DNA of 34,861 bases from Candidatus Tagabacteria bacterium CG09_land_8_20_14_0_10_41_14 (GTDB taxonomy: Bacteria; Patescibacteriota; Minisyncoccia; JAHISW01; Tagabacteraceae), in the NCBI GenBank assembly GCA_002774055.1, contig PEZL01000005.1, positions 1,101 through 35,961 of the forward strand, written 5' to 3'. Below, piece by piece: positions 5,220-34,861 of the stretch. Positions within the stretch are counted from its first letter, which is position 1; each line of letters opens with the position of its first letter. The position numbers were made by a program, and so were the translations under genes. The notes under the pieces are model-generated. The model was not told where the DNA came from. It saw only the letters and a program-made list of their open reading frames with translations, and searched no databases.

Positions 5220-6051
5220 GTTTTATTTTATATTGTTTCTCTTTGCTTGCGTTGTTTTGGTCTGGTACGCGGTTTTCGCGGAAGGCCGGAGCGGGCTGGA
5301 AGTTTATTTTCTAGATGTTGGCCAGGGCGACGCGATTTTTGTGCAGGCGGAAAACGGGAATCAGATGCTTATTGATGCCGGGCCGAATAAAAACGTTTTG
5401 CGCCAGTTAGCCGGAGCGATGCCTTTTTACGACAGAACAATTGATGTTGTTTTGGCCACGCATCCGGATTTGGACCACATCGGCGGCCTGCCGGAAGTCT
5501 TTGGCAGATATAAGGTTGATTTGGTAATTGAACCGGGCATGGTTGCGGATTCCGGGGAATATCTCGCTTTTGATAAAGCGGTTGAAGAGGCGGGCGCGAA
5601 AAGAATTTTCGCCAGGCGCGGGATGAAAATAAATTTGTCCGATGAAGTTTATCTGTTGATTTTATTTCCCAACGTTGACGTTTCTTCTTGGTCGGCGAAT
5701 GACGCTTCAATAATCGCGAAACTTGTTTACGGTAACACTTCATTTTTACTGATGGGCGATTCTCCCCAAAAGATTGAAAAATATTTAGTTTCTCTTGATA
5801 AAGAAAATTTAGACGTGGACGTGCTGAAAGTGGGGCACCACGGTTCCAAAACATCAAGCTCGGAAATTTTTGTCGGTTATGCAAGTCCTGAATACGCGAT
5901 AATTTCTGTCGGGGCGGACAATCGTTACGGCCATCCGCATCAAGAGGTGTTGGATATTTTAAATAAATTTGGAGTTCAAATTTTAAGGACGGATGAGAAT
6001 GGGACTGTAAAAATAAAAAGCGACGGCCAAAAGGTATTTGTCAATTTCTGA
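5194..6051 (+). CDS. Membrane-anchored metallo-beta-lactamase-fold hydrolase, equivalent to the ComEC C-terminal domain
   Basis: 285 aa. N-terminal TM helix YFRFYFILFLFACVVLVWYAVFA, then YFLDVGQGDAIFV, ATHPDLDHIGG and VGHHGSKTSS. Overlaps the comEC ORF by 26 nt in the +1 frame. Confidence 0.8.
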   Translation: MVKIKKYFRFYFILFLFACVVLVWYAVFAEGRSGLEVYFLDVGQGDAIFVQAENGNQMLIDAGPNKNVLRQLAGAMPFYDRTIDVVLATHPDLDHIGGLPEVFGRYKVDLVIEPGMVADSGEYLAFDKAVEEAGAKRIFARRGMKINLSDEVYLLILFPNVDVSSWSANDASIIAKLVYGNTSFLLMGDSPQKIEKYLVSLDKENLDVDVLKVGHHGSKTSSSEIFVGYASPEYAIISVGADNRYGHPHQEVLDILNKFGVQILRTDENGTVKIKSDGQKVFVNF

Positions 6052-6075
6052 ATAATTTTATAGAATAAAAGCAAC

Positions 6076-6687
6076 ATGGCTGCGGAAAAATTCAAAAACG
6101 AGAGATCACTGATTGTTATCAAGCCCGATGGAGTGCAGAGGTCTTTAATTGGCGAGATTATAAGACGTTTTGAAAGAATAGGATTGAAGCTCTCCGCGAT
6201 TAAAATGCTTGTGCCGCGCAACGAAATGATTGAGAAACATTACACGGTTGATCCGGAGTGGAGAAGAATCACCGGCGAGAAAGCTATCAAGGGCTATAAA
6301 GAAAAAGGCCAAAAGCCGCCGTCAGAGGATCCGTATGAGATTACAGGTTTGATTCTGGAAAGACTTAAGAAGTATATGAGTTCCGGGCCGGTGGTGGCGA
6401 TGGTTTGGCAAGGCGCTCACGCGGTTAAAATTGTCAGAAAATTGGTGGGCGGCACGGAACCTTTTTCTTCGGATGTCGGCACTATCCGCGGAGATTTTGT
6501 GATGGATTCTTATGAAATGTCGGACGGTGATGAAAGGTGCATCAGAAATTTAGTTCATGCCTCCGGTTCGATTGAAGATGCTGAAAAAGAAATCAGCCTT
6601 TGGTTTGCCAAAGAAGAAGTAATAGATTACCGTCTTATTCCGGAACAGATTTTTTATGACGTTAACCTTGACGGTCTTTTAGAATGA
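6076..6687 (+). CDS. ndk: Nucleoside-diphosphate kinase (long form)
   Basis: ERSLIVIKPDGVQRSLIGEIIRRFERIGLKL, GTIRGDF and NLVHASGS (catalytic His). 203 aa, with an internal extra segment compared with typical Ndk. Confidence 0.85.
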   Translation: MAAEKFKNERSLIVIKPDGVQRSLIGEIIRRFERIGLKLSAIKMLVPRNEMIEKHYTVDPEWRRITGEKAIKGYKEKGQKPPSEDPYEITGLILERLKKYMSSGPVVAMVWQGAHAVKIVRKLVGGTEPFSSDVGTIRGDFVMDSYEMSDGDERCIRNLVHASGSIEDAEKEISLWFAKEEVIDYRLIPEQIFYDVNLDGLLE

Positions 6688-14052: not shown

Positions 14053-14060
14053 ATTTGTCG

Positions 14061-14405
14061 GGTGGAGATGGCGGGAATCGAACCCGCGTGCAAAAAGTTT
14101 TTCAAAATGAATCTACATGCTTATCCTGATTTGTTTAACTCAAAAAATATAAACCAGGCAAAAATTTTTTGAGGGTGATTCTAGTTTTTAATAATTTCTT
14201 CGAATCAGGAGAAATTATCTATCTCAAAAAATGACACTCGCGATTGTCTATTGAGAATCGGCAGGCGAGCGTGCTTTAAGCGTATGCTAAAGCAGGAGTT
14301 TTGAATAAGTTTGCACTTATTTGATTTCTAAAAGTTTAACGAGGTTTTAGAATACTCGGCATGCACGATTTTGAAAAAGGCTTTTTGTCGATGCCGATCA
14401 TCCCC
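14061..14405 (-). ncRNA. ssrA: tmRNA (transfer-messenger RNA)
   Basis: The minus strand starts GGGGAUGAUCGGCAUCGACA and ends GCGGGUUCGAUUCCCGCCAUCUCCACC. The acceptor stem GGGGAUG/CAUCUCC has the G3:U pair, with a T-arm GCGGG-UUCGAUU-CCCGC. The tag frame GCA AAC TTA TTC AAA ACT CCT GCT TTA GCA TAC GCT TAA encodes ANLFKTPALAYA* (14276..14314). It lies immediately downstream of smpB. Confidence 0.9.
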
Positions 14406-14844
14406 GATTTTTCAACTCTCTTTCAACGTCTCTTTTCATGTCGCGCGCTTTGATTTTTTCTCTTTTGTCGTATTTTTTCAGCCCGCGAGCCACACCGAAA
14501 GAAACTTTGATTACGCCGCCTTTAGTATAAACATATAAAGGTATTAATGTCAATCCTTTTTGCTTGTCTTTTCCTTCTAAATAATCTATTTCTTTTTTAT
14601 TAAGCAATAGTTTTCTGGTGCGCATGGAGTCGTAGTCGGGTATCATGTTTTTGGGCTGATATGGCCCTATTTCCATACCTATTATAAAAGCTTCGCCGCC
14701 TCGTATAATTATATGAGAACCTGCCAAAGAACCTCTTTTTAATTTAAGGGATCTTACTTCAAATCCCTGAAGACGTATGCCGGCCTCAAACTTTTCCATA
14801 ATCTCATAATCAAATCGGGCCTTTTTGTTGTCTAATAAGGTCAT
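14398..14844 (-). CDS. smpB: SsrA-binding protein SmpB
   Basis: 148 aa with NKKARFDYEI, GIRLQGFEVRSLK, LLLNKKEI and a basic C-terminal tail. The 3' end overlaps the first 8 nt of ssrA. Confidence 0.92.
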   Translation of the reverse strand: MTLLDNKKARFDYEIMEKFEAGIRLQGFEVRSLKLKRGSLAGSHIIIRGGEAFIIGMEIGPYQPKNMIPDYDSMRTRKLLLNKKEIDYLEGKDKQKGLTLIPLYVYTKGGVIKVSFGVARGLKKYDKREKIKARDMKRDVERELKNRG

Positions 14845-19392: not shown

Positions 19393-20856
19393 TTAAGGAT
19401 ATTTTAAAACCCCGCAAGAATGCGGGGTTTTAAAATAGGAATTCTTTTTTATAATTTCAATCGTTTCTTCTCCGGATAAATTTTCTTTTTCCAAGAGACT
19501 GGAAACGATGTCATCAAACGCTTTGTTATGCCTTATAATTATCTGTTTGGCCTCTTCATATTTTTTGTTTAAAGTTTCCCGTACTTCTTCATCAATCTCT
19601 CTTGCCGTTTGTTCGCTGCAAACCTTTTGAACTTCGCGGCCTATTCGTTTGCCCAGAAATGGATGTTCGGAAATTTCCTCAATAACCGCCAGGCCGATTT
19701 TTTCGTTCATTCCTAATTCGCAAATCATTTTGCGAATTAGGTTCGTGGCTCTTTTTAAGTCGTTTTGAGCACCGGCACTTTTTTCTTTCAATTTAATTTC
19801 TTCCGCCGCTCTGCCGGCCAGTAAAACAGTAAGTTGATTTAATATATATTTTTCAGAGATACTGTATCTGTCTTCCAGGGGAAGGCTGACCGTTACTCCT
19901 AAAGATTGAGAACGGGGGACGATGGAAATTTTATGCAGTGGGTCGGTATGTTCGGGATCTCTCTGATAAAGTATGGCATTAACCAGCGCGTGTCCGGTTT
20001 CGTGAGTAGCGCTAATTAGTTTGTCGCGTTTACCCACTCTTAAAGTTTTTCTTTCATATCCCATTAATATTACATCTTTAGCTTTTTCAAAATCTTCTAT
20101 TTCTACGGATTTTTTCTTTTTTTTGGCGGCTAGCAACGCGGCTTCATTTGTCAAATTGGCTAAATCTGCCCCGGTAAAACCAATAGTTCCTCTTGCAATT
20201 GTTTTCAAATCTATATTTTTTCCCAAGATAATATTTTGGGTATGGATTTCTAAAATGCGCTCCCTTCCTTTTACGTCAGGCGGTGGAACTAAAATGTTTC
20301 TGTCAAATCTTCCGGGTCTAATTACCGCGCTGTCCAGCATATCCGGCCGGCTGGTAGCGCCAATAACTATTACACTTTGATTAGTTTCCAAACCGTCCAT
20401 TTCTATCAAAAGTTGGTTTAGGGTCTGTTCTCGTTCATCGTGGGTTATGCTGGTTCCTCGGCTTTTGGCCAGCGCCTCAAATTCGTCAATGAATATAATG
20501 GAGGGAGAATTATTATTGGCTTGCTTGAATAGGTTTCTTACCCGGGCTGCACCTACCCCCACAAACATTTCCACAAACTCCGATGCTTCTCCGGCTACTG
20601 CTTTGGCCAAAAGAGTTTTACCGCATCCAGGTGGACCGATAAAAAGTATACCTTTGGGCAGTCTTCCTCCAAGTTTAGAGAATTCTTCGGGATTTTTTAA
20701 AAATTCAATTATTTCCTGTGTGTTTTCTTTGGCTTCTTCTATCCCGGCAATATCGTTGAAAGTAATTTTTGGCCGCTTTTCTATAGATATGTTTTTGTCA
20801 TCGATTTTAGTGAAGTTCTTTCCCGAGAGATTCCTTGCCATTTGGTTTTTACGCAT
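19393..20856 (-). CDS. ftsH: ATP-dependent zinc metalloprotease FtsH (longest uninterrupted ORF; homology continues upstream to 21303 across an in-frame TGA)
   Basis: Walker A [13 protein letters not shown], Walker B IIFIDEF, the second region of homology [15 protein letters not shown] and the protease motif HETGHAL. Upstream, in the same frame: TM2 [16 protein letters not shown], the FtsH extracellular-domain-like IPYSVFLKLLNQKTVEKV, a TGA at 21238..21240, then TM1 MMPENKHLLIVAVLVLLLFWY from the ATG at 21303. Confidence 0.85.
   Translation of the reverse strand: [487 protein letters not shown]
19406..19431. terminator. Bidirectional hairpin terminator between convergent genes
   Basis: AAAACCCCGC-aagaat-GCGGGGTTTT: a 10-bp stem flanked by A/T runs on both sides. 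It lies within the last codons of ftsH ([12 protein letters not shown]) and 21 nt after the stop of the 19095 ORF. Confidence 0.75.
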
Positions 20857-21439: not shown

Positions 21440-22957
21440 ATGATTAGAAAAATTTTAGAAGAAAAGAGCGGTTATAAAGTATGGTGGAACGGGGACGAAA
21501 GAGGAGATTATAGCGCTAATGTTGGCAGCGCGGAGAAAGCGGGGGATGTTAAGAATGGATTAATAAACGATAAGTATATTTCTAAAATAGAAACTGAAAA
21601 AGGTTTTGTTAATTTTTGGCTGTCTGAAAAAGCGCTGGAAGATGGATTGAGGTTTGCCTTGCAAGAAAAATTTGATTTTTTAAAAAAACAAAAAATCCAG
21701 GTTGAGTTTATTTCGGCCAACCCCACCGGGCCTTTGACTTTGGGCAATGCTAGAGGCGGAGTGTATGGCGATGTCTTGGCTAATGTTTTGGAAAAATGCG
21801 GGGCGAAGGTTGTGAAGGAATATTATGTGAATGACGCCGGCAATCAGATAGAGATTTTGGGCCATTCAATTCTAAAAGACGATAAAGCCGAATACGCGGG
21901 AGACTATATTAATGAGTTGGCCCTTCGACTTCGCTCAGGGCAAGCAGGCGGGCCGAAAGATGTTGGAGAAAAAGCCGCTGAAATAATTTTAGATAACATT
22001 AAGAAAACCGCGAAAGATATGGGGATTGATTTTGATGTGTGGTTTTCAGAGAGAAAGGATTTGCGTGAGAAGGGGAGGATAGATGAAATTGTGAAATGGC
22101 TGAAAGAAAAAGATTTGGCACATGAAAAAGGCGGGGCGCTGTGGTTTAAGGCCTCGCAATTCGGCGATACAGAAGACAGAGTTTTGATAAAAGAAAATGG
22201 CGAACCCACATATTTTTGTGCGGACGCGGCTTATCATAAAAATAAATTTGTAGACAGAAAATTTGATAAAGTTATAAATGTTTGGGGCGCGGATCATCAT
22301 GGAGATGTAGGGCGGATAAAAGGATTTGTGGAAGCGCTTGGTTTTTCCGCCCAACTGGAAATAATTTTAATGCAGTTTGTAAGGCTTTTGGAAAACGGCA
22401 AAGCCGCGAGAATGTCTAAAAGGAAAGGCACATATGTTTTGGTAGAAGATGTTTTAAGGGAAGTCGGCAAAGATGCCTTCAGATATTTTATGCTTACGCG
22501 CTCGGCAAACACGCATATGGATTTTGATATGGATTTGGCAAAAGAACAGAGCAAAAAGAATCCGGTCTACTACATTCAGTATTCGCATGCCAGGGTGTGC
22601 TCTATACTGAATAAATTCGAAATCCCTGCCTCGCTGGCAGGCAGGCGAAATCCGAAATCTGAAACAATACCAAATATCAAATTATTAAATTCAAAACACG
22701 AACGACAACTGATTTTGAAACTAATTCAGATTCCGGAGGTATTGGAAGACATTTCAAAAGATTATCAGGCGCATAAGTTAACTACTTATATATATGAGTT
22801 GGCAAAAACTTTCACGGATTTTTATGAGAATGTAAGAGTGCTGGAGGCGGAAAGTGAGGAATTGAAAAGGGCGCGATTGTCTTTGGTGGCTGCCACTAGA
22901 CAAATTTTAGAAAAGGTTTTGAAATTGATGGGTATTTCCGCTCCGGAGAAAATGTAA
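21440..22957 (+). CDS. argS: Arginine--tRNA ligase
   Basis: 505 aa with VEFISANPTGPLTLGNARGGVYGD, YYVNDAGNQIEILG, VWGADHHG, RMSKRKGTYV and the C-terminal DALR anticodon-binding region (YIQYSHARVCSIL...). Confidence 0.9.
   Translation: MIRKILEEKSGYKVWWNGDERGDYSANVGSAEKAGDVKNGLINDKYISKIETEKGFVNFWLSEKALEDGLRFALQEKFDFLKKQKIQVEFISANPTGPLTLGNARGGVYGDVLANVLEKCGAKVVKEYYVNDAGNQIEILGHSILKDDKAEYAGDYINELALRLRSGQAGGPKDVGEKAAEIILDNIKKTAKDMGIDFDVWFSERKDLREKGRIDEIVKWLKEKDLAHEKGGALWFKASQFGDTEDRVLIKENGEPTYFCADAAYHKNKFVDRKFDKVINVWGADHHGDVGRIKGFVEALGFSAQLEIILMQFVRLLENGKAARMSKRKGTYVLVEDVLREVGKDAFRYFMLTRSANTHMDFDMDLAKEQSKKNPVYYIQYSHARVCSILNKFEIPASLAGRRNPKSETIPNIKLLNSKHERQLILKLIQIPEVLEDISKDYQAHKLTTYIYELAKTFTDFYENVRVLEAESEELKRARLSLVAATRQILEKVLKLMGISAPEKM
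22625..22641. repeat. GC-rich hairpin CCTGCC-TCGCT-GGCAGG inside argS, followed by an A-rich (C/G)AAATC-type repeat
   Basis: Direct reading. It encodes ...IPASLAGRRNPKSETIPN... The arm sequence matches the palindrome at 2545..2564. Confidence 0.8.
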
Positions 22958-22992: not shown

Positions 22993-23274
22993 TTACTTTC
23001 TGTGTTTCATTGTTTGGTAAACAACAGAACGATTTTGAATTACGAAAATTTTTACTTTTTTTGTTTCAATTCTGAAAATTATCCGATAATTACCCACTCT
23101 TAACTTTCGGTATCCCTTGAGAGATTGCCGTAACGGCTTGCCAAATATTTCAGGATGGCTGACAAGTTTATCTTCAATTGCCTTTTTAATTTTCTTTTTC
23201 CAAACCAAAGACAAATCCGGAATGTCTTCCTTGATTACCTTGTCGTGATAATGGATAGTAAATTTTACTTCCAC
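22993..23274 (-). CDS. Type II toxin, RelE/ParE family
   Basis: 93 aa. LKGYRKLRVGNYRIIFRIETKKVKIFVIQNRSVVY is the RelE/ParE core. Overlaps the upstream antitoxin ORF by 10 nt. Confidence 0.75.
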   Translation of the reverse strand: MEVKFTIHYHDKVIKEDIPDLSLVWKKKIKKAIEDKLVSHPEIFGKPLRQSLKGYRKLRVGNYRIIFRIETKKVKIFVIQNRSVVYQTMKHRK

Positions 23275-23888: not shown

Positions 23889-24146
23889 ATGAAAATTTTT
23901 TATCGCTCAAGATTTAAGCGAGAGTTTAAAAAATTGCCAAAGAAAATTCAAGACTTAGCTGAAGAAAAGATTGAGATTTTCAGAAAAAATCCTTTTGATT
24001 CTCGTTTGGATACTCATAAATTACATGGCCTGCTTAAAACTTTCTGGGCCTTTTCTGTAGATTATAAAAACAGAATTATTTTTGATTTTTGCGATAAGTA
24101 TACCATAAGATTTTATTCCATCGGTGACCATGATATTTATTGGTAG
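23889..24146 (+). CDS. Type II toxin, RelE/YafQ-like mRNA interferase family
   Basis: 85 aa. FKREFKKLPKKIQDLAEEKIEIFRKNPFDSRLDTHKLHG...WAFSVDYKNRIIFDF...IRFYSIGDHDIY matches the RelE/YafQ pattern. Starts 5 nt after the antitoxin stop. Confidence 0.7.
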   Translation: MKIFYRSRFKREFKKLPKKIQDLAEEKIEIFRKNPFDSRLDTHKLHGLLKTFWAFSVDYKNRIIFDFCDKYTIRFYSIGDHDIYW

Positions 24147-24287: not shown

Positions 24288-27200
24288 ATGGATTTTTCTA
24301 AAAATGAGGAAAAAATTTTAAAATTTTGGAAAGATAACGGTATTTTTAAAAAATCTCTTGACAAGGAAGCTCCACGGGGAGATTTTGTTTTTTACGAAGG
24401 CCCGCCTACGGCCAATGGCCGGCCGGGTATTCATCATGTTGAGGCGCGCGCCTTTAAGGACTTAATTCCGCGTTTTAAAACAATGCGGGGGTTTAGGGTT
24501 TTAAGAAAAGCCGGCTGGGACACCCATGGTTTGCCGGTGGAGATAGAGGTGGAAAAGAAACTCGGTTTTAAAGGAAAAAAAGATATTGAAGAGTATGGAA
24601 TAGAGGATTTTAATAAGAAATGCAGAGATAGCGTGTGGGAATATAAAGAAGATTGGGAAAAAATGACTGAGCGTATTGGTTTTTGGATTGATATGGAGAA
24701 TCCTTACATTACTTACAGCACTGATTATATTGAAACACTTTGGTGGATTATAAAAACTGCGCATGAAAAAAAGTTTTTATACAAGGGTTATAAGGTGGTG
24801 CCTCATTGTCCGCGTTGCGGCACCGCGATTTCTTCACACGAGGTGGCTCAAGGCTACAAAACTATTACCGAGGATTCGGTAATAGTTAAATTCCAAATTA
24901 CAAATTCTCCCGCTACGCAGGAACTTGCGAAGCAAGACAAATCACAAATTCCAACTTATATTTTGGTTTGGACCACTACGCCTTGGACTTTGCCGGGCAA
25001 TGTAGCATTGGCAGTTGGTGAAAAACTTGATTATGTAAAGATTAAACAAGGCGAGGAATTTTTTTATATTGCTAAAAATTTATTAAACAAAATTAAGGGG
25101 GAATATAAAATTGTTGAAGAAATTAAAGGTAAAAAGCTTGTTGGTTTGGAATACGAGCCGCTTTTTCCGGAAGCCGTTAAAAAGACTGATGAAAATTTCA
25201 AAAACGCTTTTAAGGTTTATTCGGCTGATTTTGTTTCTGTTGAAGACGGCACCGGTGTGGTGCATACGGCTGTGATGTACGGCGTTGACGATTATGAGTT
25301 AGGAGAAAAAGTTGGTTTACCAAAAGTCCATACCGTAAATCTAGACGGAACTTTTAATGAAAGGATTTTTAAGTGGCAGGGAAAATTTGTTAAAGCCGTT
25401 GAAAAAGAGATTATAAAAGATTTGGAAGAAAGAAAGTTACTTTATAAAACGGAAAAATATTCCCATGATTATCCTTTTTGTTGGAGGTGCGATACACCTC
25501 TTTTGTATTACGCCAAAGACAGCTGGTATTTTAGGATGAGCGAATTGCGTGATGATTTAATAAAAAATAACAAAAAAATAAACTGGATTCCGGAATACAT
25601 TAAAGATGGCCGATTTGGAGAGTGGCTCCGCGACGTGAAAGATTGGGCTATTTCGCGGGAGCGTTATTGGGGAACGCCGCTGCCGGTTTGGCAATGCGAT
25701 AAATGCAATGAGGAAAAAGTAATTGGTTCTGTTGAAGAAATAAGAAAAGAATTAGGCGGAATAAATAAATTATTTTTAATAAGGCACGCGGAGGCGGAAA
25801 ATAACATGGAAGGTATTAACAACTCACTTCCTGAAACAAAAAAATATCCGCTTACAAAAGAAGGAGAAAAGCAGGCGGAGAAAGTGGCCGGGGTTTTGAA
25901 AGAAGCAAAAGTTGATTTTATTTTTAGTTCACCTCTTTTGCGCGCAAGGCAGACTGCCGAAGCGATATCTGAAAAGATTGGTATTGAGATAAAATTTGAC
26001 GACAGGTTGAGAGAAATTGATTTGGGAGAGTTGAATAATCATCCGCACGCCGAATTACAGGAATTTTATCCCACCCAGGAATCGCGCGCGAAAAATACTG
26101 GGCATGGTGTTGAAAGCGGGGTTGATGTCAGGAAAAGAACGGAAGATTTTTTGGAGGAGATAAACGAAAAATATAAAAATAAAAATATCGTTATTGTTTC
26201 CCACGGCGATCCTCTTCAGATTTTATACGGCGCGGCGCAAGGAATTGATTTGTTTGATTCGCTTAAGGGCTGGTATCCGTTAAAAGGTTCTTTAAAACAA
26301 GTTTATTCAAAGCCGCTTGATTTACATCGGCCTTATATTGATGAAGTGGTTTTGGATTGTAAATGCGGCGGGAAAATGAAAAGAGTGCCGGAAGTGGCGG
26401 ATTGTTGGTTTGATTCCGGCTCTATGCCGTTCGCGCAGTTTCATTATCCTTTTGAAAATAAAAAATTAATTGACGAAGAAAAATTATTTCCGGCCGATTT
26501 TATTTCCGAGGCCGTTGATCAAACTCGAGGTTGGTTTTACACTCTTTTGTCCGTGTCTACTTTGCTCGGCAGGGGGCCGTCGTTTAAAAATGTGATTTGT
26601 TTGGGGCATGTTTTGGATAAAAATGGGCAGAAAATGAGCAAGAGCCGTGGTAATGTCGTAGATCCGATGGAAATGATTAAAAAGTACGGGGCTGATACGG
26701 TGCGCTGGTATATGTATATTATAAATCAGCCGGGTGACCCCAAGCGCTTTGATGAAAAAGATTTAAAAGAGGCCAGAAAAATTTTTGTGACCCTGGCTAA
26801 TGTTTTGGTTTTTTATAAAATGTTTACCCCGTTAGAAGTAGTTTCGCGGAGCGAAACGCAAGTTCTAACGGGGTTTGCCCTAGACAATGTTTTAGATAAA
26901 TGGATTTTGGCTAATTTAAATTTGTTAATTAAAGAAATAACGGAAGGTTTAGAGAAATACGATGTTACCACGAGCGCTAGAAAAATTGGAGCTTTCATTT
27001 TAGATTTATCGCAGTGGTATCTGAGGAGGTCTAGGGAAAGATTCAAGGGAGATGACGGCGGGGCGCGAAAAACTTTGCGTAAGGTTTTGGTTGATTTAAG
27101 CAAGCTAATGGCGCCCTTCGCGCCGTTTATTGCCGAACATATTTATCAAGAATTAGGCGGGAGAGAACAATCGGTTCATTTGGAGCGTTGGCCGGAAGTT

Positions 27201-27686
27201 AGAAAAGAATTCATTGATGAAAAAATTTTGGAAGATATGAAAAAAGCAAGGCAGGATGTGTCGGTTGGTTTGGATTTAAGATTAAAAGCCGGCATCAATG
27301 TCCGCCAGCCGCTTGTTTTTTTTGAAACGCCGAATAAGTTTGGCGGAGATTTGCTGGAAGTGATAAAAGACGAACTCAATGTGAAAGAAGTAAAGGCGGG
27401 GAAGGAATACAAACTTGCCACTGATTTGACTCCCGAATTAGTTCAGGAGGGGCAGGCGCGCGAATTAATCCGCACCATTCAGGATTTGCGAAAGAGAAAA
27501 GGATTGGTACCAAAGGATGAAATTGATTTGTCGGTTGAAACAGATGAAGAGGGTGAAAAATTCATCAAAAAAGTTGAAAGCGAGCTCAAAAAAGCCGCCA
27601 ATATAAAATCCATAAAATTTTCAGAAAATAACGGAGAAGAAATTAAAATTAACGAATTGCTTTTGAAATTGAAAATTGATAATTGA
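24288..27686 (+). CDS. ileS: Isoleucine--tRNA ligase with an embedded histidine-phosphatase (PGAM-like) domain
   Basis: 1132 aa with the HIGH region PPTANGRPGIHHVEAR, the CP1 editing region (TTTPWTLPGN, GTGVVHTA), KMSKS (QKMSKSRGN) and the anticodon-binding region. About 185 extra residues (nt ~25761..26312) carry the motifs RHAEAENN / SSPLLRARQTAE / SHGD. Confidence 0.93.
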   Translation: MDFSKNEEKILKFWKDNGIFKKSLDKEAPRGDFVFYEGPPTANGRPGIHHVEARAFKDLIPRFKTMRGFRVLRKAGWDTHGLPVEIEVEKKLGFKGKKDIEEYGIEDFNKKCRDSVWEYKEDWEKMTERIGFWIDMENPYITYSTDYIETLWWIIKTAHEKKFLYKGYKVVPHCPRCGTAISSHEVAQGYKTITEDSVIVKFQITNSPATQELAKQDKSQIPTYILVWTTTPWTLPGNVALAVGEKLDYVKIKQGEEFFYIAKNLLNKIKGEYKIVEEIKGKKLVGLEYEPLFPEAVKKTDENFKNAFKVYSADFVSVEDGTGVVHTAVMYGVDDYELGEKVGLPKVHTVNLDGTFNERIFKWQGKFVKAVEKEIIKDLEERKLLYKTEKYSHDYPFCWRCDTPLLYYAKDSWYFRMSELRDDLIKNNKKINWIPEYIKDGRFGEWLRDVKDWAISRERYWGTPLPVWQCDKCNEEKVIGSVEEIRKELGGINKLFLIRHAEAENNMEGINNSLPETKKYPLTKEGEKQAEKVAGVLKEAKVDFIFSSPLLRARQTAEAISEKIGIEIKFDDRLREIDLGELNNHPHAELQEFYPTQESRAKNTGHGVESGVDVRKRTEDFLEEINEKYKNKNIVIVSHGDPLQILYGAAQGIDLFDSLKGWYPLKGSLKQVYSKPLDLHRPYIDEVVLDCKCGGKMKRVPEVADCWFDSGSMPFAQFHYPFENKKLIDEEKLFPADFISEAVDQTRGWFYTLLSVSTLLGRGPSFKNVICLGHVLDKNGQKMSKSRGNVVDPMEMIKKYGADTVRWYMYIINQPGDPKRFDEKDLKEARKIFVTLANVLVFYKMFTPLEVVSRSETQVLTGFALDNVLDKWILANLNLLIKEITEGLEKYDVTTSARKIGAFILDLSQWYLRRSRERFKGDDGGARKTLRKVLVDLSKLMAPFAPFIAEHIYQELGGREQSVHLERWPEVRKEFIDEKILEDMKKARQDVSVGLDLRLKAGINVRQPLVFFETPNKFGGDLLEVIKDELNVKEVKAGKEYKLATDLTPELVQEGQARELIRTIQDLRKRKGLVPKDEIDLSVETDEEGEKFIKKVESELKKAANIKSIKFSENNGEEIKINELLLKLKIDN
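26827..26873. repeat. 47-nt nested hairpin inside the ileS coding sequence
   Basis: CCCCGTTAGAA-gta-GTTTCGC-gga-GCGAAAC-gcaag-TTCTAACGGGG: outer 11-bp and inner 7-bp perfect stems, encoding ...PLEVVSRSETQVLTG... Confidence 0.9.
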
Positions 27687-27703
27687 GCATTGAAAATTGT
27701 TGT

Positions 27704-28207
27704 ATGTCTTATCGTGTCTACACAACCGAAGCTGTTATTTTGAAAAAAGCCGATATTGGCGAGGCGGATAAACTTTTTTCTTTTTTCACTAAAGATTTCG
27801 GCCGTCTTGAGATTAAGGCGCAAGGCGCGCGGTATCTTAAATCTAAATTAAGGTATCATTTATCAGGGCGGGCTATTTTGAAAATTTCTTTTGTCGGAAG
27901 CAACGGTGAATATTGGCGTTTGGTTGGCTGTAATGAGCAGATTGTTTTTGATAATATCAAGAATGATTTTTTAAAGACAAAATCCACGGAGAGGGTTTTG
28001 TCTTTTGTCGAAAGATTAATTCAGGGTCAGCAAAAAGATGAAAAATTATGGAACGCTCTGGTTGAGTCTTTTGTCCTTATTAATACAAGGAGTTTTGCCT
28101 GTTTTGACCTTAAAAAATTTGAACAAGAGATGTTCGCGAAATTTTTAGCTGAGCTTGGTTATGGCGGCGCAGACATAGAGAGTGCTCTTGAGAAAAGTAT
28201 GTTATAA
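27704..28207 (+). CDS. recO: DNA repair protein RecO (short form)
   Basis: The track ORF starts at TTG 27683, overlapping the ileS stop. The ATG at 27704 gives MSYRVYTTEAVILKKADIGEADKLFSFFTKDFGRLEIKAQGARYLKSKLRYHL, the RecO N-terminal OB-fold pattern. Confidence 0.75.
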   Translation: MSYRVYTTEAVILKKADIGEADKLFSFFTKDFGRLEIKAQGARYLKSKLRYHLSGRAILKISFVGSNGEYWRLVGCNEQIVFDNIKNDFLKTKSTERVLSFVERLIQGQQKDEKLWNALVESFVLINTRSFACFDLKKFEQEMFAKFLAELGYGGADIESALEKSML

Positions 28208-30139: not shown

Positions 30140-30351
30140 TGAATTATGAAATAAACAATTTAATGGACAAAATCGTGAGTCTGGCGAAAAGACGGGGTTT
30201 TGTGTATCCGGGTTCGGAGATTTACGGCGGTTTTGCCGGCGCTTGGGATTACGGCCCGCTTGGGGCGGAAATGCTTTACAACATAAAAGAGGCTTGGTGG
30301 AAAAATTTGTCAGCAGCAGAGAAGATATGTATGGCTTGGCAAGCACTATAA
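30139..30351 (+). CDS. glyQS: Glycine--tRNA ligase, N-terminal fragment ORF (frame A)
   Basis: [55 protein letters not shown] is the conserved class-II GlyRS N-terminus. After the A5 run at 30301..30305 the frame stops resembling GlyRS. Confidence 0.75.
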
Positions 30352-31349
30352 TTATGCCGGAGTCTGTTTGGGCGGCATCAGGGCATTTGGAGAATTTTAC
30401 CGACCCTTTGGATGGTAAAAAATTTAACACTATGTTTAAGTCGGAGGCCGGCGCGCGAAAGGGCGAAACAACGAACGTTTATCTGCGGCCGGAATTGGCT
30501 CAGGGGATGTTTGTGAATTTTAAAAACATTGTTGATTCTTTTCATCCCAATCTGCCGTTTGGTATTGCTCAAATCGGAAAATGTTTCAGAAACGAAATTT
30601 CTCCGCGCGATTTTCTTTTTAGGGTGAGAGAGTTTAATCTTATGGAATTTGAATATTTTATTTTAGAAAAGGAATGGGAAAAGCATTTTGAATATTGGAG
30701 AAAAGAAATGTGGGATTGGATTAAGGAAATAGGCATTAATAAAGATAAAGTTCATGAATCGGAAGTATCAAAAGAAGAATTGGCGCATTATTCAAAAAGA
30801 ACGATTGATTTTGAGTTTGATTTTCCTTTTGGCAAAAAAGAACTTTACGGCCTTGCCTACCGCACTGATTATGATTTAGCAAATCATAAACTGAATTATT
30901 ATGATGAAGAAACCAAGAAAACTTTTATCCCTCATGTGATTGAGCCAACCTTTGGGGCCGATAGAACAATGCTGGCTATTTTGACCGGCGCTTACGCCGA
31001 AGATGAACTTGGTGGAGAGAAAAGAGTTTTTTTGAAACTGAAACCGCGCATTGCGCCGGTAAAGGTTGCGGTGTTTCCGTTGTTAAAAAATAAAGCGAAG
31101 TTGGTGGAAAAGGCGAGAGAGGTTTATAAGATGATTAAAGTTGCGATTCCGCAATTAATGTTTGACGATAACGGCAATATCGGCAAGCGCTACAGAAGGC
31201 AGGATGAAATCGGCACTCCTTTTTGCGTTACCGTAGATTTTGAAACTCTGGAAAATGATACCGTTACCGTCCGCGGCCGCGACACCGGTGAACAGCAAAG
31301 AGTTGGCGCAAAAGAACTTTTGGAATATATTCGGGAGAGATTGAAATAA
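30243..31349 (+). CDS. glyQS: Glycine--tRNA ligase, main ORF (frame B; GlyRS-like only from about 30303 onward)
   Basis: (K)[66 protein letters not shown] (motif 2), [14 protein letters not shown] (motif 3) and a C-terminal anticodon-binding domain. Confidence 0.88.
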
Positions 31350-33907: not shown

Positions 33908-34861
33908 ATGGAAAAATTTTACGTTACAACTGCCATTGATTACGTCAATGGCGCGCCTCATTTAGGCCATGCTTTGGAAAAGATTCAGGCCGATGTCATT
34001 GCCCGCTATCAGCGTATGTTTGGTGAAAAAGACGTCTATTTTTTGACCGGCACCGACGAGCATGGAATAAAAATCGTTCAGTCGGCCGAGGAAGCCGGCC
34101 GAAAAGTTGAAGACTTTGTCGATTTGAATGTTGAAAAGTTTAAAAAACTTTGCGCGGATTTGAATATTTCTTATAGCGATTTTATTCGCACTTCCGACAA
34201 AAAAAGGCATTGGCCCGTGGCGCGGAGTATCTGGAAAAAAATGGAAGAGGAGGGGGATATTTATAAATCAAAATATAAGGGATTTTATTGCGTCGGTTGC
34301 GAGGCCTTTATAACGGAGAAAGATTTGATTAACGGAAAATGCCCGTATCACGAATCTTTGGAGCCGGAGTTGATAGAGGAAGAAAATTATTTTTTTAAAC
34401 TTTCAAAGTATGCCGCCGAGATTCGTAAAAAAATTGAGACGGATGAATTGTTAATTTTGCCGGAAGCCAGAAAAAACGAAGTTTTGGAAATACTTAAAGA
34501 CGTGAAAGACATCAGTTGTTCCAGGCCGGCCGAGAAAGTGTGTAATTGGGGCGTGCCGGTGCCGGGCGATGAATCGCAAATTATGTACGTTTGGATAGAG
34601 GCCCTTACGAACTATTTACAGCCAAAAGATTTTTGGCCCGCTGATACGCATGTGATAGGAAAAGATATTCTCCGTTTTCACGCCGTTGTGTGGCCGGCGA
34701 TGCTTTTGTCCGTCGGATTGGAATTGCCGAAAAAAATTTTTGCGCACGGATTTGTTTTATCGGGCGGTAAAAGAATGTCTAAAAGTTCGGGAAATGTTAT
34801 TGACCCGTTTGAATTGATAGAAGAATATGGCGCTGACGCCCTGCGTTATTACCTGCTTCGG
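33908..34861 (+). CDS. metG: Methionine--tRNA ligase (5' part; runs off the right edge)
   Basis: Absent from the track because it has no stop in the window. MEKFYVTTAIDYVNGAPHLGHALEKIQADVIARY (HIGH), the CVGCEAF...CPYH zinc knuckle and GKRMSKSSGNVI (KMSKS). The frame is open for 318 codons to the window end. Confidence 0.92.
   Translation, partial: MEKFYVTTAIDYVNGAPHLGHALEKIQADVIARYQRMFGEKDVYFLTGTDEHGIKIVQSAEEAGRKVEDFVDLNVEKFKKLCADLNISYSDFIRTSDKKRHWPVARSIWKKMEEEGDIYKSKYKGFYCVGCEAFITEKDLINGKCPYHESLEPELIEEENYFFKLSKYAAEIRKKIETDELLILPEARKNEVLEILKDVKDISCSRPAEKVCNWGVPVPGDESQIMYVWIEALTNYLQPKDFWPADTHVIGKDILRFHAVVWPAMLLSVGLELPKKIFAHGFVLSGGKRMSKSSGNVIDPFELIEEYGADALRYYLLR

What the first reader, a model, noticed from the sequence alone, without database searches (positions are those of the whole stretch)
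25761..26312. Histidine-phosphatase (PGAM-like) domain nested inside isoleucyl-tRNA synthetase
The 1132-aa IleRS ORF is colinear with class-I IleRS except for about 185 residues (roughly aa 492-675). These lie between VWQCDKCNEEKVIGSVEEIRKELGG and [25 protein letters not shown], two segments that are normally near-contiguous and carry the CxxC / CxC pairs. The insert reads LFLIRHAEAENN ... PLTKEGEKQAEKVA ... FSSPLLRARQTAEAI ... DDRLREIDLGEL ... IVIVSHGDPL. These blocks line up one for one with E. coli GpmB-type histidine phosphatases (VYLVRHGETQWN / PLTAKGEQQAMQVA / ISSDLGRTRRTAEII / DSRLRELNMGVL / LLVSHGIAL). Both catalytic His residues and the Arg residues are present. There is no stop, frameshift or obvious composition break at either junction. 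It therefore looks like an intact second catalytic domain embedded in an essential aaRS, not a neighbouring gene. I do not know of a described IleRS with this architecture. Any function, such as acting on a phosphorylated nucleotide or tRNA end or on an aaRS by-product, is speculation.
Basis: partly seen in the sequence, partly recalled or inferred. Interest (0 to 1): 0.8.

Follow-up and report, generated by a model that had tools for sequence, protein, structure and literature searches.

The report
Phosphatase domain nested inside isoleucyl-tRNA synthetase
A complete, apparently active histidine-phosphatase enzyme is built into a surface loop of the essential isoleucyl-tRNA synthetase of a Patescibacteria (CPR) bacterium, and the same pairing recurs so widely (as a neighbouring gene, or nested in IleRS and ValRS) that it points to an undescribed partnership between this phosphatase and tRNA-charging enzymes.

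Summary
ORF 24288-27686 (+) is a type-2 IleRS (TIGR00392, 915 bits). It carries a complete His_Phos_1 domain (PF00300, E=1.7e-41, aa 495-655) between the two Cys pairs of its Zn-binding CP3 subdomain. It is not an assembly artefact: 74 of the 120 closest protein clusters and at least 44 GTDB species share the architecture.

The catalytic residues (R499, H500, N506, R552, E576, H639) are invariant or nearly so. The fold is closest to small phosphatases (PspA, PhoE, CobC), not to true mutases.

Three further findings:
- In related Paceibacteria the same protein is a separate gene wedged between argS and an insert-less ileS, in otherwise identical synteny.
- In Gracilibacteria/Peregrinibacteria the domain sits at three IleRS positions and two ValRS positions, often in both enzymes on one contig, in one to four copies.
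- An unrelated HAD phosphatase, GNATs and P-loop kinases occupy the same positions in some IleRSs.

Best reading: an accessory phosphatase that works together with class Ia synthetases. Its substrate is unknown. I found no description in the searchable literature.

Verdict: real, widespread and undescribed; a new variant of a known kind. Interest 0.7.

The parts
24288..27686 (+). Isoleucyl-tRNA synthetase gene, type 2 (IleRS2), 1132 aa, hosting the nested domain
   Evidence: ORF. TIGR00392 915 bits, above the 621 cut-off. Foldseek best match P. megaterium IleRS2 8C9D, TM 0.82.
24426..24437 (+). HIGH signature motif in its swapped form G47-I48-H49-H50 (GXHH)
   Evidence: Sequence. Conserved in alignment A1. 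GXHH is described as the mupirocin hyper-resistance motif of IleRS2 in PMC10485003.
25695..25706 (+). First Cys pair (C470-x2-C473) of the CP3 Zn knuckle, just upstream of the insert
   Evidence: Invariant in A1. CP3 is Zn-binding in T. thermophilus IleRS (PMC7191050).
25752..26309 (+). Nested segment absent from insert-less relatives (about aa 489-674): a whole histidine-phosphatase protein plus short linkers
   Evidence: Alignment with 46 insert-less clusters. Covers residues 3-181 of the 185-aa free-standing homologue.
25770..26252 (+). His_Phos_1 (PF00300) domain match, aa 495-655
   Evidence: E=1.7e-41 in the full protein, 6.7e-43 alone; domain model pLDDT 91.7. TM about 0.76 to PspA 4IJ5/4IJ6, then PhoE, GpgP and CobC.
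25782..25787 (+). R499-H500 of the RHG motif (phosphate-binding Arg and nucleophilic His)
   Evidence: 100% conserved in 74 clusters.
25941..25943 (+). R552, second phosphate-binding Arg
   Evidence: 100% conserved.
26013..26015 (+). E576, general acid/base
   Evidence: 100% conserved.
26202..26204 (+). H639, second catalytic His
   Evidence: 100% conserved.
26358..26366 (+). Second Cys pair (C691-x-C693) of the CP3 Zn knuckle, just downstream of the insert
   Evidence: Invariant in A1.
26631..26645 (+). KMSKS motif (aa 782-786)
21440..22957 (+). argS (ArgRS), conserved upstream neighbour. In related genomes the free-standing phosphatase gene lies between argS and ileS.
   Evidence: Pfam. (synteny).
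27683..28207 (+). recO, conserved downstream neighbour that anchors the synteny

Best explanation
**What it is.** A type-2 (GXHH) IleRS carries, inside its Zn-binding CP3 subdomain, a complete and catalytically competent histidine phosphatase of the small PhoE/PspA/CobC type.

**Origin (inferred).** The insert is an internalised operon partner. In related Paceibacteria the same protein is a separate gene between argS and ileS. Here a copy has been built into a permissive loop, with the Zn knuckle holding the base of the insert together.

**How it works.**
- Catalytic chemistry, inferred from the family and supported by invariant residues: H500 attacks a terminal phosphate. R499, R552, N506 and H639 bind the phosphate. 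E576 protonates the leaving group. The phospho-His intermediate is then hydrolysed.
- Biological role, inferred: the phosphatase acts as an accessory hydrolase for class Ia synthetases (IleRS, and ValRS elsewhere). It can act in trans as a separate protein or in cis when nested. This is the same alternation seen with trans-editing factors and nested editing domains.

**Substrate (not shown).** My ranking:
1. A phosphorylated nucleotide-type ligand at the acceptor or adenylate site. This could be a tRNA 3' end blocked by a 2'/3'-(pyro)phosphate, or an AMP/PPi-type by-product. About 0.25-0.3.
2. A phosphorylated residue of the synthetase itself, such as the KMSKS loop targeted by HipA-like kinases. 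About 0.1.
3. A phosphorylated inhibitor or metabolite. About 0.1.

The domain is accessory, not required for aminoacylation as such: close relatives lack it.
For: **The domain is real and conserved.**
- significant domain calls.
- catalytic core 96-100% conserved in 74 clusters.
- confident models (pLDDT 89.4 and 91.7).
- nearest solved relatives are the phosphatases PspA, PhoE, GpgP and CobC.

**Operon partner versus nested copy.**
- Five of five free-standing closest-homologue clusters sit directly after argS. An insert-less ileS follows wherever the contig extends far enough.
- L059 is fully syntenic with the window, but the phosphatase is a separate 181-aa gene 9 nt upstream of ileS.
- Of 47 GTDB loci, 44 are nested with no free copy between argS and ileS, and 2 (L027, L045) are free-standing with an insert-less ileS.
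- Free copies are 39-43% identical to the insert over their whole length.

**Recurrence beyond simple adjacency.**
- At least three insertion sites in IleRS: 42 copies at site A, 16 at site B and 58 at site C among 120 Gracilibacteria-type clusters. 121 of 126 copies are catalytically intact.
- 70 of 120 ValRS clusters carry the domain. 72 of 85 copies lie in the loop homologous to the query's site.
- IleRS and ValRS both carry it on seven contigs, judged by equal contig lengths.
- There are tandem arrays of two to four copies.
- A non-homologous HAD phosphatase occupies the same CP3 position in P0461.
- Some ValRS lineages keep the domain even though its catalytic residues have decayed. That would not be expected of a passenger metabolic enzyme.
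Against: - No substrate evidence of any kind.
- Close relatives lack the domain, with no copy within 7 kb (L060, L061). Any coupled function is therefore dispensable.
- The insert evolves faster than the host: 40% mean pairwise identity against 65%.
- CPR IleRSs also carry obviously selfish in-frame passengers, such as an IS200-type transposase and a DUF559 endonuclease. These loops accept foreign genes readily.
- His_Phos, HAD, GNAT and P-loop kinases are simply abundant small families.
- The one insert-less ValRS locus I inspected has no adjacent phosphatase gene.
Confidence: 0.5

Rival explanations
1. Hitch-hiking metabolic enzyme. The domain is an ordinary metabolic phosphatase or mutase, for example the 'missing' phosphoglycerate mutase of some Parcubacteria, or a phosphoserine phosphatase. 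It happened to lie next to ileS and was fused into a permissive loop during genome streamlining. It works independently of IleRS, and the only gain is co-expression.
For: - The best NCBIfam hit is the archaeal-type dPGM (118-122 bits), then PspA and CobC.
- Jaffe et al. 2020 report PGM absent from several shallow Parcubacteria clades, 'possibly too divergent' (PMC7304191).
- The free-standing gene is adjacent to ileS, which supplies a trivial route to fusion.
- The insert evolves faster than the host and is lost in close relatives.
Against: - It scores below every family cut-off: dPGM_arch 225, PspA 350, CobC 163. Its structural neighbours are phosphatases rather than mutases.
- Adjacency should give an end-to-end fusion. 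What is seen is nesting at at least three internal IleRS sites and two ValRS sites.
- Several copies per roughly 1-Mb genome, in both IleRS and ValRS, plus two- to four-copy tandems, are hard to explain for one metabolic step.
- A curated complete Gracilibacteria genome is reported to lack glycolysis entirely, yet proteins labelled Gracilibacteria carry the domain. This is an inference across lineages.
- A HAD phosphatase sits at the same position.
- Degenerate copies are retained in ValRS.
Confidence: 0.25
2. Neutral or selfish in-frame passenger. CP3 and the junction between the catalytic core and the anticodon-binding domain are structurally tolerant loops. CPR IleRS and ValRS accumulate whatever small genes land there. 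His_Phos is just the commonest cargo and has no role tied to the synthetase.
For: - The same proteins carry IS200-type or REP-type transposase and DUF559 endonuclease segments in CP1, plus GNATs, kinases and a Ser-hydrolase.
- Low-complexity inserts also occur in the Zn knuckle (P0016, P0020, P0074).
- CP3 topology is known to vary between IleRSs.
Against: - The catalytic residues are invariant over long divergence in IleRS. A neutral passenger should decay.
- The same family recurs at the homologous loop of two paralogous enzymes.
- The distribution is complementary: nested copies and adjacent free copies replace each other.
Confidence: 0.1
3. Phospho-sensor or regulatory module. The domain binds a phosphorylated metabolite, or is phosphorylated on H500 by one, and so tunes IleRS activity to metabolic state rather than turning over a substrate.
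For: - Some ValRS copies keep the R-H...R phosphate pocket but lose the Glu and the second His. This is consistent with binding without turnover.
- The linkers are short and the Zn knuckle clamps the base, which suggests rigid coupling.
Against: In IleRS the full hydrolytic set, including E576 and H639, is invariant. There is no direct evidence for allostery.
Confidence: 0.1
4. Assembly chimera or mis-joined contig.
For: None.
Against: - The same architecture is found in 74 of the 120 nearest clusters, from NCBI, JGI, ENA and Logan.
- It is present in at least 44 GTDB species.
- A near-identical protein appears in an independent JGI contig.
- There is no composition break.
Confidence: 0.01

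Closest known systems
Type-2 IleRS (P. megaterium IleRS2, PDB 8C8U/8C9D; T. thermophilus IleRS, 1ILE)
   Same: The whole host is the same: HUP catalytic core, CP1 editing domain with the WTTTPWT and GTGxVH motifs, a Zn-binding CP3 as in T. thermophilus, KMSKS, an anticodon-binding domain and the DUF5915 C-terminal domain. TM is 0.82 at 35% identity. The GXHH variant of HIGH is the one described for hyper-resistant IleRS2.
   Different: No solved or described IleRS has a roughly 185-aa enzyme domain inside CP3. Neither the 2023 structure paper nor the 2026 IleRS-evolution preprint mentions one.
Small histidine phosphatases of branch 1: H. thermophilus PspA (4IJ5), B. stearothermophilus PhoE (1H2E), CobC, M. 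tuberculosis GpgP
   Same: About 190 aa, with the RHG...R...E...H catalytic set and the same fold. TM is about 0.73-0.76 at 23-34% identity, and phmmer to 4IJ5 gives E=9e-21.
   Different: Those are free-standing enzymes with defined small-molecule substrates. This one is nested in, or operonic with, an aaRS, and it scores below every equivalog cut-off.
NCBIfam NF040702 'isoleucine--tRNA ligase, N-acetyltransferase domain-containing' (ileS_w_GNAT)
   Same: An IleRS with an extra enzyme domain. In Gracilibacteria-type IleRS, GNAT and His_Phos often coexist in one protein.
   Different: The query has no GNAT and scores 314 bits against a cut-off of 1999. There is no curated model for the His_Phos variant.
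Editing modules that alternate between free-standing and nested forms (ProRS INS domain versus YbaK/ProXp; AlaRS editing domain versus AlaX). From my own knowledge.
   Same: The same evolutionary pattern: an accessory hydrolase found either as a separate, often adjacent gene or inserted into the synthetase, with a patchy distribution.
   Different: Those are aminoacyl-ester deacylases with a known proofreading role. This is a phosphomonoesterase fold with no known aaRS-related substrate.
Other His_Phos fusions to nucleic-acid or nucleotide enzymes: bifunctional RNase H/acid phosphatase (NF005567) and MutT1 Nudix-His_Phos (NF052459)
   Same: A PhoE/CobC-like domain is physically coupled to an enzyme that handles nucleic acids or nucleotides. 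The insert hits both models weakly.
   Different: Those are end-to-end fusions, not nested ones, in Actinobacteria. They have different partners, and all scores are below cut-off.

Membership tests
Isoleucyl-tRNA synthetase, type 2 (TIGR00392 / IleRS2) | Whole-protein HMM score above the curated cut-off | tested here: met
   915 bits against 621.
Isoleucyl-tRNA synthetase, type 2 (TIGR00392 / IleRS2) | Class I signature motifs (HIGH or its GXHH variant, and KMSKS), an intact CP1 editing site and a type-2 C-terminal domain | tested here: met
   GIHH at aa 47-50, KMSKS at 782, WTTTPWT at 228, GTGVVHTA at 321. DUF5915 present. Fold TM 0.82 to PmIleRS2.
Histidine phosphatase superfamily, branch 1 (PF00300) | HMM score above the gathering threshold | tested here: met
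   142-147 bits against 21.7.
Histidine phosphatase superfamily, branch 1 (PF00300) | Catalytic core: RHG nucleophile His, two Arg residues, a second His and an acidic proton donor | tested here: met
   R499, H500, R552, E576 and H639 are 100% conserved in 74 clusters.
Histidine phosphatase superfamily, branch 1 (PF00300) | Alpha/beta fold of the family | tested here: met
   AF2 domain model pLDDT 91.7. Foldseek TM 0.73-0.76 to PspA, PhoE and CobC.
Histidine phosphatase superfamily, branch 1 (PF00300) | Phosphatase activity | not testable with these tools
   Needs an enzyme assay.
Cofactor-dependent phosphoglycerate mutase (dPGM: TIGR01258, NF038349 and others) | Equivalog-level HMM score | tested here: not met
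   NF038349 118-122 bits against 225. TIGR01258 32 bits against 82. dPGM structures rank below the phosphatases.
   62-67 bits against 261.
Phosphoserine phosphatase PspA (NF045917) | Equivalog-level HMM score | tested here: not met
   95-100 bits against 350, although 4IJ5 is the closest solved structure.
Alpha-ribazole phosphatase CobC (TIGR03162) | Equivalog-level HMM score | tested here: not met
   95-99 bits against 163.
Phosphohistidine phosphatase SixA (TIGR00249), IMG's automatic name for a relative | Equivalog-level HMM score | tested here: not met
   40-46 bits against 74.5, covering the N-terminal third only.
ileS_w_GNAT (NF040702) | GNAT domain present and score above the cut-off | tested here: not met
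   314 bits against 1999. No GNAT Pfam hit.
Mupirocin-resistance IleRS MupA/MupB (NF000257/NF000258) | Exception-level HMM score | tested here: not met
   849 and 837 bits against 1900. The enzyme shares the type-2 fold and carries the GXHH motif, but it is not MupA or MupB.

The most novel reading that the evidence does not exclude
This phosphatase family may be a previously unrecognised accessory factor of class Ia synthetases: a repair, proofreading or regulatory layer. For example, it could remove a blocking 2'/3'-(pyro)phosphate from the tRNA acceptor end, or remove a toxin-installed phosphate from the synthetase. On this reading, CPR IleRS and ValRS are modular platforms with defined insertion positions (CP3, and the junction between the catalytic core and the anticodon-binding domain). 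These positions dock phosphatases of two unrelated folds, P-loop kinases, acetyltransferases and esterases that act on the same substrate.
Probability: 0.3. Interest if true: 0.9.

Novelty: new variant of a known kind. Interest (0 to 1): 0.7.

Why it matters
Bacterial aminoacyl-tRNA synthetases are usually thought of as minimal enzymes. Accretion of extra domains is considered a eukaryotic trait.

Here an essential bacterial synthetase carries a second active site. The association is kept in three forms across a very large radiation: an operon neighbour, a domain nested in IleRS, and a domain nested in ValRS. If the phosphatase acts on tRNA ends, on reaction by-products or on the synthetase itself, it would define a new type of quality control or damage repair in translation. 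It would also explain part of the unusual biology of CPR bacteria.

Even under the mundane reading there is practical value. It would locate a 'hidden' metabolic enzyme that gene-by-gene annotation misses, because these proteins are named only 'class I tRNA ligase family protein'. That bears on metabolic reconstructions which report missing steps in Parcubacteria.

The defined permissive insertion positions are also useful for engineering domain insertions into IleRS and ValRS.

Tried and rejected
1. **Chimeric assembly.** Rejected by independent recurrence and the lack of a composition break.
2. **GpmB or dPGM identity.** Rejected: all equivalog scores are below cut-off, and the structural neighbours are phosphatases.
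3. **Remnants of a decayed free-standing His_Phos.** I searched the argS-ileS spacer of the window and the 'absent' loci L050, L060 and L061. Nothing was found (hmmsearch --max).
4. **A second His_Phos copy elsewhere in the 34.8-kb window.** None (tblastn).
5. **Defence-system profiles.** PADLOC scans of the insert, the host and the neighbouring toxin-like ORFs gave no hits.
6. **A T-box or other leader RNA upstream of ileS.** Rfam found only tmRNA and tRNA-Val in the window.
7. **Genome scan with the diverse insert alignment A2.** It failed because no stretch was conserved enough. I repeated it with the query's subclade, A3.
8. **Distance from the phosphatase pocket to the IleRS active site.** Not possible: model coordinates are not exposed.
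9. **Whether ValRS nesting also derives from an adjacent gene.** The single insert-less ValRS locus inspected has no His_Phos nearby. This is inconclusive (n=1).
10. **A single origin of the insert within the query's IleRS clade.** A rough neighbour-joining tree needs about 7 gains or losses, and the nearest flank relative (P0012, 77% identity) lacks the insert. The direction of change is unresolved.
11. **Whether insert-bearing genomes lack a conventional PGM or pyrophosphatase.** Not testable here, because whole genomes could not be fetched.
Full report
**1. The observation**

The window contains an uninterrupted ORF at 24288..27686 (+) of 1132 aa.
- Pfam finds the class I synthetase core, Anticodon_1 and DUF5915. 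Between the two halves of the core it finds His_Phos_1 at aa 495-655 (E=1.7e-41, 142 bits, cut-off 21.7).
- NCBIfam identifies the host as IleRS (TIGR00392, 915 bits against 621).
- In an alignment with the 120 nearest protein clusters, 46 clusters lack the segment. They read C-x2-C...VIGSxEELG-(4-8 aa)-DLHRPYIDE...CxC. The other 74 carry 226-272 residues in that interval.
- The extra segment in the query is aa ~489-674 (nt ~25752-26309).
- GC and GC3 do not differ between the insert and the flanks (0.394/0.392 and 0.371/0.384).

**2. It is not an artefact**

- A protein differing by one residue is present in an independent JGI assembly (P0001).
- The 74 insert-bearing clusters come from NCBI, JGI, ENA and Logan assemblies and are 50-66% identical to the query.
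44 of them have the domain nested in ileS.
- Record titles name Paceibacterota/Parcubacteria lineages: Nomura-, Colwell-, Adler-, Wolfe-, Zambryski- and Nealsonbacteria. A few labels (Acidobacteriaceae, Marinimicrobia, 'Saccharibacteria' in TPA assemblies) probably reflect mis-binning or default naming.

**3. What the insert is**

- R499, H500, T523, G526, S548, R552, T556, E576, E609, R617 and H639 are invariant in the 74 clusters, and N506 is 96% conserved. This is the full catalytic core of branch-1 histidine phosphatases.
- By sequence, the closest solved proteins are Hydrogenobacter PspA phosphoserine phosphatase (4IJ5, E=9e-21), PhoE, CobC and GpgP. True dPGMs appear only at about 1e-5.
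- An AF2 model of the domain is confident (pLDDT 91.7). Foldseek ranks the same small phosphatases first (TM 0.73-0.76).
- No NCBIfam equivalog cut-off is reached: dPGM_arch 118-122 against 225, PspA 95-100 against 350, CobC 95-99 against 163, GpmB 62-67 against 261, SixA 40-46 against 74.5.
- It is therefore a member of the superfamily, in the broad-specificity phosphatase subgroup, and cannot be assigned to any characterised orthologous group.

**4. What the host is, and where the insert sits**

- The full-length AF2 model is confident (pLDDT 89.4, pTM 0.81; insert blocks 81-95). It matches P. megaterium IleRS2 best (8C9D, TM 0.82).
- The editing motifs, KMSKS and DQTRGWF are intact.
- The HIGH motif reads GIHH. 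This is the GXHH swap shown to confer mupirocin hyper-resistance on IleRS2 (PMC10485003).
- The insert lies between the two invariant Cys pairs C470/C473 and C691/C693. That places it inside the CP3 subdomain, which is Zn-binding in T. thermophilus IleRS and whose topology differs between IleRSs (PMC7191050).
- Because coordinates are not exposed, I could not measure how the phosphatase pocket is oriented relative to the synthetic site.

**5. The free-standing counterpart**

- A search of 1.84 billion representatives with the insert gave 2311 hits at E<=1e-10. Among the best 150, 81 are hosted in class Ia synthetases, 60 are free-standing (about 185-200 aa, about 40% identical) and 5 are free tandem di-domains.
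- All five free-standing clusters I looked up are encoded directly after argS. Wherever the contig is long enough, an insert-less ileS follows.
- In L056 the three genes are packed end to end: argS ends at 5999, His_Phos spans 6001-6573, and ileS starts at 6583.
- L059 carries the insert-less IleRS P0021. Its gene order is argS, His_Phos (181 aa), a 9-nt gap, ileS, recO, a 614-aa ORF, a class II aaRS, M16 and AI-2E. This is gene for gene the order in the window, except that there the phosphatase is separate.
- Conversely, in the nested loci argS is followed by ileS with no free copy between them. L027 and L045 show the free-standing arrangement.
- A third state also exists, with neither form within 7 kb (L060, L061), and no remnants are detectable.
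- The free proteins align with the insert over their whole length (residues 3-181 of 185) at 39-43% identity. Nested copies from IleRSs of similar divergence are equally similar.
- I infer one orthologous family that has moved between 'operon partner' and 'nested domain'. The direction and the number of events are not resolved.

**6. The association goes beyond adjacency**

- Other CPR IleRSs (source names Gracilibacteria, Peregrinibacteria, Peribacteria) carry the domain in 107 of 120 clusters.
- It occupies three positions there: CP3 between WGxPxP and WFxSG (42 copies), between WFxSG and DQTRGWF (16 copies), and after KMSKS between the catalytic core and the anticodon-binding domain (58 copies). 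121 of 126 copies are catalytically intact.
- ValRS from the same lineages carries it in 70 of 120 clusters, with one to three or more copies. 72 of 85 copies lie between WGHRIPVWY and DTLDTWFSS, the loop homologous to the query's site. 8 copies lie at the end of CP1.
- Matching contig lengths between the two result tables indicate that seven contigs encode both an IleRS and a ValRS with the domain. Four have it in IleRS only, one in ValRS only and one in neither (this is an inference).
- One IleRS (P0461) has an unrelated HAD-fold phosphatase at the same CP3 position and no His_Phos.
- Others add GNAT acetyltransferases (16 of 120), P-loop or Zeta-toxin-like kinases, or a Ser-hydrolase at the same two positions.
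- In ValRS, 18 of 57 single-copy clusters lack the Glu and/or the second His while keeping the R-H...R pocket. Nine clusters read VTNRS in place of VSHG. The domain can therefore be retained without full catalysis.

**7. Interpretation**

*Shown:*
- an intact, conserved phosphatase domain nested in CP3 of an otherwise normal IleRS2;
- a complementary distribution with an adjacent free-standing orthologue;
- repeated nesting at several sites in two paralogous synthetases;
- several copies per small genome.

*Inferred:* the phosphatase is selected for working together with class Ia synthetases. I put this at about 0.5.

The main alternative, at about 0.25, is a metabolic enzyme that was fused because it was next door. 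One version is that it is the PGM reported missing from some Parcubacteria (PMC7304191).
- Against the alternative: internal rather than end-to-end fusion, the multiplicity of copies and hosts, the HAD substitute at the same position, and the degenerate but retained ValRS copies.
- For the alternative: the insert is dispensable in close relatives, it evolves faster than the host (40% against 65% mean identity), and CPR IleRSs clearly tolerate selfish in-frame cargo such as a transposase and an endonuclease.

The substrate is unknown. From general knowledge of the family (phosphomonoesters, including nucleotide-like ones such as alpha-ribazole-5'-phosphate, and nucleoside diphosphates in MutT1) and of aaRS biology, I rank three possibilities:
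1. a tRNA end blocked by a phosphate, or nucleotide by-products;
2. a phosphorylated KMSKS-type loop, as HipA-family toxin kinases phosphorylate GltX and TrpS (my own knowledge);
3. phosphorylated inhibitors or metabolites.

None of these is tested here.

**8. Novelty**

- Full-text searches combining IleRS or aaRS with histidine phosphatase, PGM, Patescibacteria/CPR and domain insertion found no description.
- The two most relevant IleRS papers do not mention it.
- Databases hold many such sequences, mostly named 'class I tRNA ligase family protein'. IMG auto-names one relative with 'phosphohistidine phosphatase SixA'. NCBIfam curates the GNAT-bearing IleRS but not this variant.

It is therefore common in sequence space but uncurated and, as far as I could search, unpublished. 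I class it as a new variant of a known kind: a synthetase with an accessory domain.

**9. Verdict**

It is also the visible tip of a larger, undescribed pattern. Interest 0.7. The most novel reading not excluded is a new accessory repair or regulatory layer for class Ia synthetases, with probability about 0.3.

Noticed in passing
window 24426-24437 (aa 47-50 of IleRS): The HIGH signature motif is the swapped form GIHH (GXHH), conserved across the family. This variant was shown to give mupirocin hyper-resistance in IleRS2 (PMC10485003).
   Followed up: partly
window 22993-23274 (-) and 23889-24146 (+): A ParE-like ORF and a weak YafQ-like toxin ORF occupy the argS-ileS spacer. Related genomes hold the free-standing phosphatase gene in this spacer. 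L060 has an RHH/HigB pair in the same place, so the spacer looks like a landing pad for small cassettes.
   Followed up: partly
window 14060-14405 (-) and 14398-14844 (-): A tmRNA gene (tag peptide ANLFKTPALAYA) lies directly next to smpB. This is part of the conserved smpB-argS-ileS-recO backbone.
   Followed up: yes
window 21440-22957, 30243-31349, 34490-34861: The window is rich in synthetase genes. Besides IleRS it has ArgRS, a short class II aaRS (368 aa, tRNA-synt_2b plus HGTP_anticodon) and a MetRS fragment that runs off the 3' end.
   Followed up: partly
window 6076-6687 (+): The nucleoside diphosphate kinase ORF (203 aa) matches the 135-position NDK profile in two stretches. This suggests an insertion in this small enzyme as well.
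   Followed up: no
window 19393-20856 (-): The FtsH-like ORF (AAA plus Peptidase_M41) is only 487 aa and apparently lacks the usual N-terminal membrane part.
   Followed up: no
L048 2741-2896; L051 1737-1892; L052 7833-7988; L055 2818-2973: A conserved 51-aa ORF (M..R.PKKYR.KY...VGS.AL..., probably membrane-spanning) lies between argS and the free-standing phosphatase gene in several lineages.
   Followed up: no
P0255 aa 326-472; P0483 aa 346-470; P0477 aa 294-399: Some CPR IleRSs carry in-frame REP/IS200-type tyrosine-transposase or DUF559 endonuclease segments inside the CP1 editing region. These look like mobile-element proteins nested in an essential gene.
   Followed up: partly
P0461 aa 567-733; P0451 aa 562-734; P0462 aa 784-889; P0477 aa 1188-1320; P0401 aa 784-894: HAD phosphatase, Ser-hydrolase, P-loop/Zeta-toxin-like kinase and GNAT domains occupy the same two insertion positions of Gracilibacteria-type IleRS as His_Phos. 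The result is proteins of up to about 1860 aa.
   Followed up: partly
P0306, P0307, P0308, P0310, P0320, P0322, P0325, P0333 (ValRS): One ValRS subclade keeps a single nested His_Phos copy. Its second catalytic His is Asn (VTNRS) and the acid Glu is missing, but the R-H...R phosphate pocket is retained.
   Followed up: partly
P0016, P0020, P0074 (insert-less IleRS relatives): Low-complexity inserts of 20-35 residues lie between or next to the first Cys pair of the same CP3 Zn knuckle. This shows that the knuckle tolerates insertions.
   Followed up: no
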